A stretch of DNA of 64,000 bases from an uncultured Candidatus Binatia bacterium (GCA_965261895.1 OZ253480.1:549560-613559); one strand, 5' to 3'. Counted from the first letter of the stretch, positions 2,357 through 58,194 are shown. A program made the numbers and translations. Notes: generated by a model not told the origin, from the letters alone.

Positions 2357-2504
2357 CATGGCGTCCTTCGACTTTGCTCGCCCTTCGACAAGCTCAGGAC
2401 TCGCTACGCTCAGGACGAACGGTTCTGGAAGTCATTTCCGTTCGTCCTGAGCCCTTCGACAAGGCTCAGGACAGGCGTAGCGAAGCGAAGTCGAAGGACG
2501 CCAT
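2357..2504. repeat. Family-B compound palindromic repeat (REP/MITE-like), copy B1
   Basis: catggcgtccttcgac...gctcaggacgaacgg / ccgttcgtcctgagc...gtcgaaggacgccatt. Arms and sub-motifs are shared with 17491-17594, 45129-45320, 51852-51995 and 57951-58194. It sits between convergent gene ends. Confidence 0.8.
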
Positions 2505-2524
2505 TCCAATTGATCACGAGTCCC

Positions 2525-3346
2525 TTACCCCTGCTCCAGCACCCACCGCGCCACTTCGTCGTGTCGCGCGAACCACACCCTGGAGAACCCCTTCATGTAC
2601 CGGAGAATCTCCGTCAGCGCGGACGCCATCATCGGCCGTCCGCCGAAATGGGCGTGGACGGTCAGATTGATCATCTCCGGCACGTCTGATCGGTAGAGGA
2701 AGTCGAAGGTGTCCTTATAGACGTTGAGGAAATCCCGCGGACTGCCCCGCATGACCCGGTTGTCCGCGAAATCGCTATGGGGGATGGCCACGATGTCTCC
2801 GGATTCGGTGGCCTTCGGGTAGGGAACGTCCGTGTCGTTGTAGTCGCCGTGCCAGACACAGCCCGCTTCCGCCAGAAACCCCGCGGTATGCTCCGTGGGC
2901 GTCGCCCTGGGGCTCAACCAGCCCACGGGCCTCGTTCCCACCGCGCCCTCGATGAGATCGAAGCAGCGCCCGATCACTTCCTTCTCTTCATCCGCGGAGA
3001 GGTCGGTGAGGAAAGTGTCCTGGGTGTACGAGTGGCCGGCCAGCTCGTGTCCGTTCTCGTGCAGGGCCTTGACCGCGTCCGGGAAAAGCTCCACCGAGCG
3101 GCCACTGACGCAGACCGTGGCGGGAATCTCGAACTCCCGGAAGATCTTCATGAACCGCCAGACCCCCGTGCGTCCGCCGTATTCCGACCACGACACCCCC
3201 AGCCGGTCCACCACGCCCGGCTTCAACGGTGAGGACATGGGCGAATAGGACGGCGCCTTTCCCGGAGACCAGGTCTCGAACATGGGGGTCACAAGGACCG
3301 CCACCTTGGCGTCATTGGGCCATTTCTCTATTGCTATTGCCGACAA
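2525..3346 (-). CDS. Polysaccharide deacetylase (NodB homology domain) family protein
   Basis: 273 aa with the HSYTQD (HxxH-like) motif and overall NodB/PuuE-like character. TTG start at 3346 with GGGGAG Shine-Dalgarno 4 nt upstream. Confidence 0.7.
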   Translation of the reverse strand: MSAIAIEKWPNDAKVAVLVTPMFETWSPGKAPSYSPMSSPLKPGVVDRLGVSWSEYGGRTGVWRFMKIFREFEIPATVCVSGRSVELFPDAVKALHENGHELAGHSYTQDTFLTDLSADEEKEVIGRCFDLIEGAVGTRPVGWLSPRATPTEHTAGFLAEAGCVWHGDYNDTDVPYPKATESGDIVAIPHSDFADNRVMRGSPRDFLNVYKDTFDFLYRSDVPEMINLTVHAHFGGRPMMASALTEILRYMKGFSRVWFARHDEVARWVLEQG

Positions 3347-3367
3347 TTTTCTCCCCTTCCCTTCGAT

Positions 3368-55044: not shown

Positions 55045-55087
55045 CTACGACAGCCACGCCCGATGCAGCAAGAAGGGACCCGTCGCA

Positions 55088-57913
55088 ATGAAGAACGACA
55101 TGCAACCTCTGAGCCCCGACGCCGCCAACCTCGAGCCGCCGCAGGGAGGACTCCAGAGCTATCCCCCTTCCGACCGCTGGTCGGATTGGACCGAATACGA
55201 CGCGGCCGCGTGGCCCAGGCGGGTGGAGAAGCACTACGACCTGATCCCCACCATCTGCTTCAACTGCGAGGCGGGCTGCGGCCTGCTGGCCTACGTGGAC
55301 AAGGAAACGCAGAAGATACGCAAGTTCGAGGGCAATCCGGAACATCCGGGCAGCCGCGGCCGGAACTGCGCCAAGGGCCCGGCCACCATCAACCAGGTGA
55401 ATGACCCTGAACGCATCCTCTACCCCATGAAACGGGCGGGAAAGCGCGGCGGCGGCCAATGGGAACGCGTGACCTGGGACGAAGTGTTGGACGATCTGGC
55501 CGGAAGGATCCGGAAGGCCCTCGAGGAGGACCGCCGCAACGAGATCATGTACCACGTGGGGCGCCCCGGACATGAGCTCCTCTACCACCAGCGCATCATG
55601 CACGCCTGGGGCATCGACGCCCACAACAGCCACACCAACGTGTGCTCCGCCGGGGCCCGGGCCGGCTACGCGTTCTGGTGCGGCATCGACCGTCCCTCTC
55701 CCGATCATGCCAACGCGCGCTTCATGCTGATGCTGAGCTCGCACCTGGAGACCGGGCACTACTTCAACCCCCACGCCCAGCGCATCATCGAAGCCAAGGA
55801 GCGCGGCGCCAAGGTCTGCGTCATCGACACCCGGCTGTCCAACACCGCGTCCAAGGCCGACTACTGGATGCCCACCTGGCCCGGCACCGAAGCCGCGGTG
55901 CTGCTGGCCATGTGCAACGTGCTGCTCCAGGAAAGTCTCTACGACCGCGAGTTCGTGAGGAAGTGGGTCAACTGGGAGCAGTTCCTGCGCCAGGAACATC
56001 CGGACGAGCCCCAGACCTTCGAGCGGTTCGAAGAGATCCTCAAGACCCTCTACGGGCAGTACACGCCCGAGTTCGCCGCGGCCGAGTCCGGGGTGGACGC
56101 GGCCATGATCGTGGAGGTGGCCCACGAGGTGGCCCGGGCCGGCTCCGCGCTGTCCACCCACGTGTGGCGCAACGCCGCCGCGGGCAACCTGGGCGGCTGG
56201 GAAGTAGCCCGGGCGCTGGAGTTCCTGGTGGTGCTCATGGGCGCCGTGGGCACTCCCGGCGGCACCGCCCCCAACGCCTGGAACAAGTTCGTCCCCGCCC
56301 CGCCGATGATGCCGCCGCCGGCCAAGGAGTGGAACACGCTCATGTATCCGCCGGAATACCCGCTGGCGTTCTTCGAGATGAGCTTTCTGCTGCCGCACCT
56401 CATCAAGGAGGGCCGGGGTAAACTGGCCATGTATTTCACCCGGGTCTACAACCCGGTGTGGACCAACCCGGACGGCATGAGCTGGATCGAGATGCTGAGC
56501 GACGAGGCCAAGGTGGAGCGCCACGCCTGTCTCACGCCCACCTGGAGCGAGACCGCCTGGTTTGCGGACTACGTGCTGCCCATGGGCCTGGCGTCGGAGC
56601 GGCACGACCTCATGAGCCAGGAGACCCACTCGGCGCGCTGGATCGGTTTTCGCCAACCGGTGCTGCGGGTCGCCATGGAACGGCGGGGCAAGACCTTCGA
56701 CACCACCTGGGAGGCCCATGTGGAAGCCGGGCTGGGGGAAGTGTGGGAAGAGGACGAGTTCTGGATCGAGCTGTCCTGGCGCATCGATCCCGACGGCTCC
56801 CTGGGTATCCGGAAATACTTCGAGTCGCCGTACCGGCCGGGCGAGAAGCTCACGGTGTCGGAGTACTACCAGTGGATGTTCGAGAACAGCGTGCCGGGCC
56901 TGCCGGAGGCCGCGGCCAAGGAAGAAATCTCGCCGCTGGAATACATGCGCAAGTACGGCGCCTTCCTGGTGGCCGAAAACATCTACAGCAGCCACGCCAC
57001 CGAGCTCAAGGAGGCGGACGTGGCGGAAGCCGTGGTGGACCCGGTTACCAAGGTCGTCTCCAAGGGCGGCGCCGTGCTCGGCGTCGAGGTGGACGGCAAG
57101 GCCCAGGCCGGCTTCCCGACGCCCTCGCGGAAGCTCGAGTTCTATTCCGAGACCCTCAAGGACTGGAAGTGGCCCGAGCACCGGTTTCCCGGGTACATCA
57201 AGAGCCACGTCCACCCTTCCAATATCGACGTCGCCAAGGGGGAGATGCTGCTGCTGCCCACCTTCCGGCTGCCCACCCTCATTCACAGCCGCTCGGGCAA
57301 CGCCAAGTGGCTCTACGAGATCTCGCACAAGAATCCGGTATGGCTGCATACCCGGGACGCCGAACGCCTCGGGGTCGTCACCGGGGACCTCGTCAAGGTC
57401 CACACCGAGATCGGCTATTTCGTGGACCGGGTCTGGGTCACCGAGGGGATCCGGCCCGGCGTGGTGGCGTGCTCGCATCACCTGGGGCGCTGGCGCCTGC
57501 AGGAGGAAACCGGCGGCGGCCATTTCGCCACGGCCCTGGTCAAGCTGGAGCAGGTGGAGCCCGGGCAGTGGATGATGCGACAGCTTCACGGCATTCAGCC
57601 TTTCGAGAGCGCCGACAAGGACTCCGGGCGGGTGTGGTGGCAGGAAGCCGGCGTCCACCAGAACCTGACCTTTCCGGTGCAGCCCGACAACATCAGCGGA
57701 CAGCATTGCTGGCACCAGAAGGTGCGGGTGGAACGGCCCGGGGACGACGACCGCTACGGCGATATCTTCGTGGACACCAACAAATCCCACGAGGTGTACA
57801 AGCGCTGGCTCAAGCTGACCCGGCCGGCCCCGGGACCGGGGAATCTGCGCCGTCCGCTGTGGCTCTTGCGCGCCTACAAGCCGGCGCCGGAGGCCTACGA
57901 GTTCAAGCCGTGA
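55088..57913 (+). CDS. Molybdopterin oxidoreductase catalytic subunit (DMSO-reductase/CISM superfamily), no Tat signal
   Basis: N-terminal CFNCEAGCG...C FeS-0 motif and overall MopB character across ~940 aa. The N-terminus MKNDMQPLSPDAANLEPPQ lacks RRxFLK. AAGAAGGGA SD. Confidence 0.8.
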   Translation: MKNDMQPLSPDAANLEPPQGGLQSYPPSDRWSDWTEYDAAAWPRRVEKHYDLIPTICFNCEAGCGLLAYVDKETQKIRKFEGNPEHPGSRGRNCAKGPATINQVNDPERILYPMKRAGKRGGGQWERVTWDEVLDDLAGRIRKALEEDRRNEIMYHVGRPGHELLYHQRIMHAWGIDAHNSHTNVCSAGARAGYAFWCGIDRPSPDHANARFMLMLSSHLETGHYFNPHAQRIIEAKERGAKVCVIDTRLSNTASKADYWMPTWPGTEAAVLLAMCNVLLQESLYDREFVRKWVNWEQFLRQEHPDEPQTFERFEEILKTLYGQYTPEFAAAESGVDAAMIVEVAHEVARAGSALSTHVWRNAAAGNLGGWEVARALEFLVVLMGAVGTPGGTAPNAWNKFVPAPPMMPPPAKEWNTLMYPPEYPLAFFEMSFLLPHLIKEGRGKLAMYFTRVYNPVWTNPDGMSWIEMLSDEAKVERHACLTPTWSETAWFADYVLPMGLASERHDLMSQETHSARWIGFRQPVLRVAMERRGKTFDTTWEAHVEAGLGEVWEEDEFWIELSWRIDPDGSLGIRKYFESPYRPGEKLTVSEYYQWMFENSVPGLPEAAAKEEISPLEYMRKYGAFLVAENIYSSHATELKEADVAEAVVDPVTKVVSKGGAVLGVEVDGKAQAGFPTPSRKLEFYSETLKDWKWPEHRFPGYIKSHVHPSNIDVAKGEMLLLPTFRLPTLIHSRSGNAKWLYEISHKNPVWLHTRDAERLGVVTGDLVKVHTEIGYFVDRVWVTEGIRPGVVACSHHLGRWRLQEETGGGHFATALVKLEQVEPGQWMMRQLHGIQPFESADKDSGRVWWQEAGVHQNLTFPVQPDNISGQHCWHQKVRVERPGDDDRYGDIFVDTNKSHEVYKRWLKLTRPAPGPGNLRRPLWLLRAYKPAPEAYEFKP

Positions 57914-57950
57914 GGTGCCGGGAACCGTGATGATCGGCCGGCGTTCCAAG

Positions 57951-58194
57951 CAGCGTCCTTCGACTTCGCTCGTCCTGAGCGTAGCGAGGCAGCCGAGCGA
58001 AGTCGAAGGGCTCAGGACGAACGGATAAGACATCTCATCCCCGTTCGTCCTGAGCCCTTCGACAGAGCTCAGGACAGGCGTAGAGAGTCCTGAGCCTGTC
58101 GAAGGACTCAGGACGAACGGTTGGGAAAACCCCTATCCCCGTTCGTCCTGAGCGTAGCGAGGCAGCCGAGCGAAGTCGAAGGACGCTGCTTTGA
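57951..58194. repeat. Family-B compound palindromic repeat, copy B5
   Basis: Nested gctcaggacgaacgg / ccgttcgtcctgagc stems and cgaagtcgaagg arms, about 245 bp. Confidence 0.8.

What the first reader, a model, noticed from the sequence alone, without database searches (positions are those of the whole stretch)
2357..58194. Family B: long palindromic elements with ~41-bp arms at five loci, several of them compound
The core arm is GGCGTCCTTCGACTTCGCTCCGCTACGCTCAGGACGAACGG, paired with its exact reverse complement across a 16-20-nt loop. Copy B2 (17491-17594) is a perfect 104-bp hairpin bounded by CATG on both sides. B1 also starts CATGGCGTCC. The other copies (45129-45320, 51852-51995, 57951-58194) are nested or duplicated versions with internal stems gctcaggacgaacgg/ccgttcgtcctgagc. 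Four of five lie between convergent 3' ends or immediately upstream of a gene start; B2 abuts the exonuclease start codon. This is MITE/REP-like non-autonomous DNA. Its size and perfect symmetry make it a potential strong transcription terminator, an RNase E-protected 3' structure or a recombination hotspot.
Basis: seen in the sequence. Interest (0 to 1): 0.55.

Follow-up and report, generated by a model that had tools for sequence, protein, structure and literature searches.

The report
Hairpin repeats tied to GIY-YIG nucleases
The five long palindromes are real copies of an intergenic hairpin-repeat family found in several bacterial phyla, and in other bacteria the same arm sequence brackets a tiny GIY-YIG nuclease gene, which makes them a new variant of the recently described nuclease-plus-hairpin (Ssn/SRM) systems rather than a classical transposon remnant.

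Summary
Family B sits at exactly five intergenic loci (six core hairpins) and cannot be chance. Only B2 is a perfect 44+16+44 palindrome. The other copies are modular variants with insertions.

The elements are inserted DNA. Orthologous sites in related genomes are occupied, half-deleted or empty. The arms stay 97-100% identical where synonymous sites are only about 70% identical, and arm variants are mostly compensated on the opposite arm. No copy is followed by a T-tract, Rfam gives no real match, and there is no transposase in the window.

The core arm, CCTTCGAC..GCTCAGGACGAACGG, occurs in Binatia, Lysobacter, Methylococcales, Sphingomonadaceae, Betaproteobacteria, Lentisphaerae, Myxococcota and Desulfobacterota. 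In ten fetched loci (seven distinct gene cassettes) it flanks a single-domain GIY-YIG gene of about 92 aa. In at least half of 120 homologues the called protein reads into the arm. B-type arms flank this gene in Anaeromyxobacter and in a 76%-GC contig. Arms with the outer module but without the middle module flank it on a Sphingomonas plasmid.

The closest known system is Ssn/SRM (Chenal 2025). However, the hairpin fails the published SRM consensus and carries GTAG rather than CGTC.

No partner nuclease gene was found in the Binatia sequence I could read. That is the main gap.

Verdict: a new variant of a known kind, of moderate interest.

The parts
2357..2506 (.). B1: compound palindrome. Outer module (2357-2378 / 2484-2506), extra arm-like modules CCTTCGACAAGCTCAGGAC (2382-2400) and CCTTCGACAAGGCTCAGGACAGGC (2453-2476), and core hairpin 2408-2452 (15-nt loop). 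It lies between the convergent stops of an OsmC-like gene (2345) and a polysaccharide deacetylase gene (2525).
   Evidence: (I16)
17491..17594 (.). B2: perfect palindrome with 44-nt arms and a 16-nt loop. From outside in: outer module, CTAC/GTAG, then core 17520-17565. It lies between the BNR-repeat gene stop (17639) and the exonuclease gene.
   Evidence: (I2)
17463..17490 (+). B2 left outer tail (GGAAACCCTGACGATTGG...), an inverted partner of the right tail. It lies upstream of the probable true exonuclease start at 17451.
17595..17613 (-). B2 right outer tail. It reads GGAGGCTCGGATCAATCGT on the minus strand.
45129..45320 (.). B3: 50-nt perfect arms (45147-45196 / 45268-45317) with a duplicated middle module. 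The 71-nt interior holds partial arm copies. It starts 3 nt after the CitMHS transporter stop (45126) and faces the convergent mnhG stop (45329).
   Evidence: (I1)
51852..51995 (.). B4: palindrome with core hairpin 51890-51937 (18-nt loop). The left arm has a duplicated middle module and the right end is duplicated in tandem (51960-51995). It lies inside an operon, between CoA-transferase subunit A (stop at 52027) and subunit B.
   Evidence: (I9, I18)
51996..52013 (-). B4 outer tail (GGAACCTCTGATT on the minus strand). A homologous stretch is also present at the empty site in L104.
57951..58194 (.). B5: compound element. An outer stem (57955-57972 / 58167-58184) encloses two core hairpins (58010-58055 and 58106-58153) and a small middle hairpin. 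An Anaeromyxobacter locus next to a GIY-YIG gene has the same layout. B5 lies between the molybdopterin oxidoreductase stop (57913) and the TctA gene.
   Evidence: (I6, I8, I10)
58195..58209 (-). B5 right outer tail (GGAAACTCTCAAC on the minus strand), conserved in the orthologous locus L067. The left-side partner is about 57916-57950 (GGGAACCGTGATGATCGG...).

Best explanation
Family B is a set of orphan, non-autonomous copies of a hairpin-repeat family. The arm of this family, CCTTCGAC(..)GCTCAGGACGAACGG, is the cognate flanking repeat of small single-domain GIY-YIG nucleases. These nucleases resemble the Ssn ssDNA nucleases, and the repeats resemble their SRM/NTS hairpins.

Shown:
- The copies are inserted DNA.
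- They are kept palindromic.
- Their arms are far better conserved than neutral sites.
- In other bacteria the same arms bracket the nuclease gene.

Inferred:
- When the DNA is single-stranded (replication, repair, DNA uptake) the arms fold into a hairpin.
- A trans-encoded GIY-YIG enzyme binds this hairpin and nicks beside it.
- That interaction drives the spread, homogenisation and recurrent module junctions of the repeats.
- Any effect on mRNA, such as a stable 3' hairpin or an RNase III substrate, is a by-product.
For: Insertion polymorphism:
- B2 site: L183 has TGATG (stop and start overlap) and L184 has a 15-nt spacer. L095 has a full element and L182 has a half-deleted one.
- B4 site: L102, L004 and L038 are occupied. 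L104 lacks the palindrome.

Conservation:
- Arms are 97-100% identical, while third-codon identity in the neighbouring genes is 0.69-0.78.
- 13 stem pairs show changes on both sides, against 3.4 in shuffles (0/500) and 1-3 in slid controls. Separately, 37 variants are compensated and 11 are not.

Linkage to GIY-YIG:
- Three of about 24 non-Binatia loci found by the hairpin pattern alone carry the gene next to the hairpin.
- At least 60 of 120 homologues read through into the arm, as ...SKS[AVI]HPST[SG]SGRTDL.
- A hairpin or arm lies on both sides of the gene in Methylobacter, Nitrotoga, Desulfurivibrionaceae and two circular MAG contigs of unknown taxon, and on a Sphingomonas plasmid.
- B-type arms (outer module, variable middle, CTAC, core) flank the gene in Anaeromyxobacter L192 and in L193. 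L192 also shows the B5-type compound layout.

Published precedent:
- SsnA is a 94-aa GIY-YIG that cuts ssDNA next to its hairpin repeat, and such repeats flank ssn genes and occur in hundreds of copies (PMC11893778).

Orientation:
- Loop and insert orientation show no bias relative to transcription. This fits a DNA-level role better than a strand-specific RNA role.
Against: - No GIY-YIG gene was found in the window, in about 77 Binatia-type 8-kb loci or in 9 Lysobacter loci. The partner in this lineage is therefore unproven. A single-copy gene could easily be missed in about 4% of a genome.
- The hairpin does not match the published SRM search sequence, whereas the positive control NTS does.
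- The element is a near-perfect palindrome tagged GTAG/CTAC, not a directional CGTC-tagged motif.
- Whether the associated GIY-YIG clade is cd10448 (Ssn) or UPF0213-like could not be decided. The PDB hits are UPF0213 proteins.
- No mechanism of copying by a GIY-YIG nuclease is known.
- GTAG tags and TA-bounded outer tails point to other possible mobilisers.
Confidence: 0.55

Rival explanations
1. GTAG-tagged REP/REPIN elements, mobilised in trans by a RAYT (IS200/IS605-like tyrosine transposase). The core hairpin plus the adjacent GTAG would be the recognition unit.
For: - GTAG directly follows the core on 147 of 215 flanks.
- Some middle modules are themselves small GTAG-tagged hairpins, for example GTAG-CGACGC-GAA-GCGTCG and the Lysobacter GTAG-GCGCGAAGCGCC.
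- The other palindrome families in the window and in related loci also carry CTAC/GTAG.
- REP dimers nested in longer palindromes are described in PMC3733652.
- No clean target-site duplication is seen at the B2 and B4 sites.
Against: - The GTAG is paired with CTAC on the other arm. It is not an unpaired 5' tag.
- The arms of the simple copies are not themselves hairpins, so the element is not a doublet of REPs.
- No RAYT was seen, but the loci were not scanned for one.
- The arm is demonstrably linked to a GIY-YIG gene, not to a Y1 transposase.
Confidence: 0.15
2. A classical MITE of a DDE transposon, like Correia, ERIC or RUP elements. The outer tails would be terminal inverted repeats, TA the duplicated target, and the long palindrome internal cargo.
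For: - Outward-facing tail motifs (GATCAGAGTTTCC, TCGGACAGGCTCC) with up to 2 errors occur on 35 of 248 flanks, against 0.9% of controls.
- Tails are always in inverted orientation.
- The best-preserved complete copies are bounded by TA or CTAG: L021, L039, L048 and L097.
- The same tails flank other palindrome families.
- Elements start a median of 34 nt from a stop codon, which fits a TAG/TAA-containing target.
Against: - Most copies lack recognisable tails.
- The spacing between tail and palindrome varies.
- A tail-like stretch persists at the empty site L104.
- No full-length IS with these ends was found in about 1 Mb of fetched DNA.
- There is no match in plasmids or viral contigs.
- The similarity to the IS5 inverted repeat is recalled from memory only.
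Confidence: 0.15
3. The elements are kept mainly for an RNA-level role. As very stable hairpins in transcripts they would protect upstream mRNA from 3' exonucleases, or create RNase III processing sites between genes, as described for E. coli REPs and Neisseria Correia elements (from established knowledge).
For: - Hairpin energies are extreme.
- The copies lie just downstream of stop codons, including inside the CoA-transferase A/B operon.
- The palindrome folds identically in either orientation.
- The paired state is maintained by compensated changes.
Against: - There is no T-tract, so these are not intrinsic terminators.
- G-U pairs are rare and the arms are perfect Watson-Crick complements. 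This is the pattern expected for a DNA palindrome.
- Divergent (promoter) regions are not significantly avoided: 9% against 14% background.
- The sites are dispensable in relatives.
- An RNA role does not explain the linkage to a nuclease gene.
Confidence: 0.1
4. Local segmental duplication or chance palindromes.
For: None beyond the clustering of five copies in 64 kb.
Against: - Flanks are unrelated and the counts far exceed shuffles.
- The family is present in many genomes and phyla.
Confidence: 0.01

Closest known systems
Ssn nucleases with their SRM/NTS hairpin repeats (Chenal et al. 2025, Nat Commun, PMC11893778)
   Same: - A single-domain GIY-YIG gene of about 92-95 aa is bracketed by copies of a hairpin repeat.
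- The same hairpin is scattered through the genome, almost always between genes.
- The system is found across phyla.
- The architecture looks like an insertion sequence, yet no transposase is present.
   Different: - The hairpin sequence is unrelated to NTS and fails the published SRM pattern.
- Stems are 15-44 bp rather than about 8-9 bp.
- The element is fully palindromic and tagged GTAG/CTAC, not directional with a CGTC tag.
- In Binatia it is elaborated into nested or compound palindromes of 100-250 bp.
- The nuclease clade was not assigned to cd10448, and no partner gene was found in the window's lineage.
GTAG-tagged REPs / REPINs with RAYT transposases (Di Nocera 2013, PMC3733652; Bertels and Rainey 2011, PMC3116915)
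   Same: - They are extragenic palindromes carrying a GTAG tag.
- They form inverted doublets that fold into long hairpins.
- They show compensatory changes.
- They are mostly vertically inherited at orthologous sites.
- They can be nested in larger palindromes.
   Different: - The GTAG is base-paired and lies 3' of the core hairpin.
- The arms are not independent hairpins.
- The associated gene found here is a GIY-YIG nuclease, not a RAYT.
- Near-identical arms occur in different phyla.
Mosaic intergenic repeats: E. coli BIMEs, Neisseria NIMEs (RS blocks flanked by dRS3) and Correia elements (from established knowledge; dRS3/NTS in PMC11893778)
   Same: - They are built from a small set of reusable motifs.
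- They lie after stop codons and inside operons.
- TA-bounded inverted ends are seen in some copies.
- Several repeat families share the same connector sequences.
   Different: - The motif set is different.
- No IHF or gyrase sites, and no promoters, were tested.
- Family B modules are joined at recurrent junctions: GAGC|CCTTCGAC and GTCGAAGG|GCTCAGG.

Membership tests
Ssn/SRM system | Hairpin-forming inverted repeat present in many, mostly intergenic copies | tested here: met
   - Six core hairpins lie in 64 kb, all intergenic.
- 110 of 119 element midpoints lie outside predicted genes. The other 9 fall in ORFs over-extended at the 5' end.
Ssn/SRM system | The repeat flanks a single-domain GIY-YIG gene of about 95 aa on both sides | tested here: met
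   - Met in other taxa: L056, L074, L081, L187-L191, L192, L193, L196/L198 and L199.
- At least 60 of 120 homologues read into the arm.
- Not shown for the window's own lineage.
Ssn/SRM system | A cognate nuclease gene in the same genome as the repeats | tested here: inconclusive
   There is none in the window or in about 77 Binatia-type 8-kb loci.
Ssn/SRM system | The repeat fits the SRM search sequence HGTCWY..RNCYNB, with a directional CGTC tag | tested here: not met
   The pattern matches the NTS control and one unrelated site at 60384-60411. It does not match B2 or the basic hairpin.
Ssn/SRM system | The nuclease belongs to CDD family cd10448 and cuts only ssDNA next to the hairpin | not testable with these tools
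   Pfam gives only PF01541. There is no NCBIfam hit. The nearest solved structures are the UPF0213 proteins 1zg2 and 1ywl.
REP/REPIN-RAYT | A conserved GTAG tetranucleotide at one end of a short imperfect palindrome | tested here: inconclusive
   GTAG follows the core on 147 of 215 flanks, and it is invariant in 23 aligned copies. However, it is paired with CTAC and lies 3' of the hairpin.
REP/REPIN-RAYT | The REPIN is an inverted doublet of units that are each a hairpin | tested here: not met
   The B2 arms fold only against each other. Only some middle-module variants in other genomes are small hairpins.
REP/REPIN-RAYT | A RAYT (PF01797) gene flanked by the repeats | not tested
   - The fetched loci were not scanned for Y1 transposases.
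- Five ORFs bracketed by elements were read by eye, without a domain scan. By apparent similarity they look like ordinary genes or a GIY-YIG gene.
- Ten Pfam-scanned window ORFs contain no transposase.
MITE (Correia/ERIC/RUP-like) | Terminal inverted repeats plus a target-site duplication | tested here: inconclusive
   Outer tails are enriched 16-fold on flanks and always inverted. TA bounds 4 of 13 copies that have both tails: the 12 listed plus L021, which one search did not list. The window copies have no clean duplication.
MITE (Correia/ERIC/RUP-like) | An autonomous IS with the same ends | tested here: not met
   There are no tail pairs at IS-like spacing and no recurrent transposase ORF in the fetched loci. 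There is no plasmid or viral match.
Intrinsic terminator | A GC-rich hairpin followed by a T-tract | tested here: not met
   None of B3-B5 is called in the scan of 44500-58600. No T-run follows any copy.
Known structured RNA (Rfam) | A match to a curated covariance model | tested here: not met
   There are 0 hits at gathering thresholds. The only hit is a sub-threshold plant miRNA hairpin on B5.

The most novel reading that the evidence does not exclude
Family B and its relatives form a second, sequence-unrelated class of nuclease-hairpin pairs spanning many bacterial phyla. A conserved GIY-YIG enzyme of about 92 aa recognises a long, perfectly palindromic GTAG-tagged ssDNA hairpin. Its cutting and rejoining at fixed positions generates the recurrent nested and compound palindromes. 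This would be a GIY-YIG-driven way of propagating repeats, in the way that RAYTs drive REPINs.
Probability: 0.3. Interest if true: 0.75.

Novelty: new variant of a known kind. Interest (0 to 1): 0.5.

Why it matters
- Repeats of this family are very common in environmental bacteria and produce many spurious "hypothetical proteins" (peptides such as HPSTSSGRTD, LRQAQDER and PFVLSLSK). I found no description of them by sequence in the open literature.
- Linking them to a GIY-YIG nuclease extends the 2025 Ssn discovery to a new recognition hairpin. It points to a ready source of ssDNA nucleases with new specificities.
- It offers a testable origin for a major class of bacterial intergenic repeats whose mobiliser has been unknown.
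- It also corrects local annotation, for example the exonuclease start.

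Tried and rejected
- Rfam at gathering and E-value thresholds gave nothing real.
- Literature searches by DNA strings and by repeat-encoded peptides found no description of the family. The hits to GCTCAGGACGAAC are 16S rRNA primers.
- The 14-nt identity of the core to the 16S 5' region was judged a coincidence. From my own knowledge (no 16S sequence was read here), the carrier groups' own 16S genes differ at that position.
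- All-against-all clustering of ORFs from 101 loci found no recurrent transposase.
- A search for tail pairs at IS-like spacing found none.
- Loop and insert orientation showed no significant association with transcription direction or GC skew.
- Gene context showed only a weak, non-significant shift away from divergent regions.
- Plasmid BLAST of B2 and a viral-contig scan for the hairpin were both empty.
- I tried to find the partner nuclease in Binatia through two further protein searches, a representative search and cluster look-ups. These found B-type arms next to GIY-YIG genes in Anaeromyxobacter and in unnamed high-GC contigs, but none attributable to Binatia.
- The derivation from IS5 (resemblance of the inverted repeat) rests on memory and was dropped as unsupported.

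Full report
**1. Observation**

The window has 64.7% G+C. The 15-nt core arm GCTCAGGACGAACGG occurs 12 times with up to 1 mismatch, as six inverted pairs, against 0.01 expected. The outer module TCCTTCGACTTCGC occurs 13 times against 0.6 expected. Twelve hits lie inside the five named loci. The thirteenth (46478, 2 mismatches) lies in a predicted coding region and is probably chance.

B2 is a perfect 44+16+44 palindrome. The full 41-nt arm is found only in B2 and in one arm of B4. B1, B3, B5 and the other B4 arm are variants with inserted or duplicated modules.

Predicted folds are extremely stable:

| copy | energy (kcal/mol) | z-score |
|---|---|---|
| B2 | -96.6 | -18 |
| B1 | -81.7 | -7.8 |
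| B4 | -86.9 | -10.2 |
| B3 | -136.1 | -12.6 |
| B5 | -154.8 | -13.3 |

B5 has three inner hairpins. All copies are intergenic:
- B1 and B3 lie between convergent stops.
- B2 lies after a BNR-repeat gene.
- B4 lies between CoA-transferase subunits A and B.
- B5 lies after a molybdopterin oxidoreductase gene.

**2. Anatomy**

Comparison with 101 loci from other genomes shows a modular, nested build. From outside to inside the modules are:
- an outer module, (AT)GGCGTCCTTCGACTTCGC;
- a variable middle module, CGNAGC in 90 of 157 arms and duplicated or hairpin-forming in the rest;
- CTAC/GTAG, which follows the core on 147 of 215 flanks;
- the core GCTCAGGACGAACGG;
- a loop of 9-38 nt.

The loop has a loose asymmetric consensus, TTGTGGnAGCC..., and occurs in both orientations. 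An optional one-sided insert, CCTTCGACAAGCTCAGGACAGGC, is itself arm-like.

Beyond the palindrome, some copies carry outward-facing tails, GATCAGAGTTTCC or TCGGACAGGCTCC. These occur with up to 2 errors on 35 of 248 flanks, against 0.9% of control segments, and are always inverted. The best-preserved complete elements are bounded by TA or CTAG (L021, L039, L048, L097). The same tails flank other palindrome families. The whole region is therefore a mosaic, comparable to BIMEs and NIMEs.

**3. Evidence that it is inserted, constrained DNA**

At the B2 site, relatives with 79-85% identical exonuclease show every state:
- stop and start overlap in L183;
- a 15-nt spacer in L184;
- a full element in L095;
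- an element that has lost its left arm in L182.

At the B4 site, L102, L004 and L038 are occupied. L102 has a loop expanded by four tandem units of about 37 nt. L104 lacks the palindrome, and distant relatives have a 15-nt spacer. B3 and B5 have occupied orthologues in L099 and L067.

Third-codon identity between these genomes is 0.69-0.88. Even where it is only about 0.70, the arms stay 97-100% identical while loops and flanks diverge.

On 23 simple copies, 96.5% of cells pair. Thirteen pairs show changes on both sides, against 3.4 ± 1.4 in shuffles (0/500) and 1-3 in slid controls. My own count gives 37 compensated and 11 uncompensated variants.

**4. What it is not**
- Rfam gives no real match.
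- No T-tract follows any copy, and the terminator scan, run only over 44500-58600 (B3-B5), calls none of them.
- The ten window ORFs scanned with Pfam include no transposase.
- No recurrent transposase ORF appears in the fetched loci.
- There are no plasmid or viral matches.
- Loop and insert orientation show no bias relative to transcription or GC skew.
- Gene context is 68 tandem, 23 convergent and 9 divergent, against a background of 70/16/14%. The median distance from the facing stop codon is 34 nt.

**5. Distribution**

The exact core hairpin occurs in Binatia and Binatia-like MAGs, cultured Lysobacter species, Methylococcales, Sphingomonadaceae, Betaproteobacteria, Lentisphaeraceae and Moduliflexus.

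Lysobacter shares the outer module and GTAG with Binatia. Other groups have the basic form CCTTCGACA(A/G)-core. The window is closest to the Binatia chromosomes OZ244617.1 and OZ244869.1.

**6. The linked gene**

Three of about 24 non-Binatia loci found by the hairpin alone carry a GIY-YIG ORF of about 92 aa directly beside it. The protein family is large: 5886 hits at E ≤ 1e-8, and 10828 cluster representatives at E ≤ 1e-3.

In at least 60 of 120 close homologues the called protein reads through into the arm, giving ...SKS[AVI]HPST[SG]SGRTDL, which is the arm translated.

Fetched loci show a hairpin or arm, then the gene, then an arm or hairpin, in Methylobacter, Nitrotoga, Desulfurivibrionaceae and two circular MAG contigs of unknown taxon. 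An annotated Sphingomonas parapaucimobilis plasmid shows the same layout. There the arms have the family-B outer module joined directly to the core.

Full B-type arms (outer module, variable middle, CTAC, core) surround the gene in an Anaeromyxobacter MAG. That locus reproduces the compound layout of window copy B5. A 76%-GC contig shows the same arms. The tails of P0370, P0395 and P0412 encode such arms.

**7. Comparison with known systems**

Chenal et al. 2025 (PMC11893778) showed three things:
- SsnA, a 94-aa GIY-YIG, cuts only ssDNA beside its NTS hairpin.
- ssn genes are flanked by such hairpins (SRMs).
- SRMs occur in hundreds of copies across phyla.

The architecture here is the same. 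However, their SRM search sequence does not match family B. It does match the NTS control and one unrelated site at 60384 in the window. The tag is GTAG, not CGTC, and the CDD class of the enzyme could not be checked.

Di Nocera et al. 2013 (PMC3733652) give the GTAG/CGTC REP framework and describe nesting of REP dimers in longer palindromes. Family B is not among their families by text search.

**8. Verdict**

Family B is a real family of non-autonomous intergenic palindromes found in several phyla. The best-supported reading is orphan copies of the hairpin repeat of an Ssn-like GIY-YIG nuclease (confidence 0.55). The partner gene in Binatia is still to be found. RAYT-mobilised REP, DDE-type MITE and an RNA-level role remain as rivals or as additional layers.

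It is a new variant of a known kind, of moderate interest.

Noticed in passing
window 11645-11876 and 53133-53346: A second palindromic repeat family, (CA)CGGGCGGGTTTGAAACCCGCCCCTAC(A), carrying a CTAC/GTAG tag. At 11645-11876 it sits in a 102-nt tandem unit that also contains a tail-like GGGACATTCTGATCAAT. In other Binatia loci the same palindrome sits next to the TCGGACAGGCTCC-type tails (L079).
   Followed up: partly
window 5314-5556 and 13526-13662: A third repeat family, CCCTCTCCCTCTGGGAGAGGGT, in arrays of direct and inverted copies. It is also seen next to a tail motif in L093 700-840.
   Followed up: no
window 60384-60411: CGTCATTCCGGCGAAAGCCGGAATCCGG matches the published SRM/NTS consensus of the Ssn system exactly. 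It is a CGTC-tagged hairpin, so this genome also carries the canonical type.
   Followed up: partly
window 25625-25789 (related pieces at 53247-53290 and 5567-5600): An inverted repeat with 47-nt arms, CTAGTGTGGTGTCTCACAAATACG..., just upstream of a HigB/HigA pair. The motif CTAGTGTGGTGTCT also occurs beside family-B copies in L015 and L034.
   Followed up: no
window 22500-27000 and 40580-42228: A stretch of lower G+C (0.60) holds an AAA_15/AbiEii-like ATPase (24274-25551), HigB-like toxin and HTH antitoxin (25827-26490). Further on are a CopG antitoxin (40580-40867) and an HTH protein. This may be a small defence or toxin-antitoxin island.
   Followed up: partly
window 16681-17493 (minus strand): The longest-ORF start of the PolB-like 3'-5' exonuclease (ATG at 17493) lies in the end of the palindrome. 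Homologue lengths and empty-site relatives indicate the real start is MMYVVFDIET at 17451. The closest database homologue (P0001, 270 aa) appears to carry the same over-extension.
   Followed up: yes
L102 about 3500-3650 (orthologue of B4): The loop of the orthologous element is expanded by four tandem copies of a unit of about 37 nt (ggacaccgctggtgccttggaacaactccatcctc), while the arms stay intact.
   Followed up: no
core arm, e.g. window 17520-17533: GCTCAGGACGAACG is identical over 14 nt to the 5' region of many 16S rRNA genes (TGGCTCAGGACGAACGCTGG, just after primer 27F). This is why literature string searches return only primer papers. It is probably a coincidence.
   Followed up: partly
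window 60414-60477: A GC-rich imperfect palindrome, GGGCGCCGGGGAAA..TTTCCCCGGCGCCC, with a 4-nt gap lies at the end of a minus-strand gene. It looks like a conventional terminator-type hairpin.
   Followed up: no
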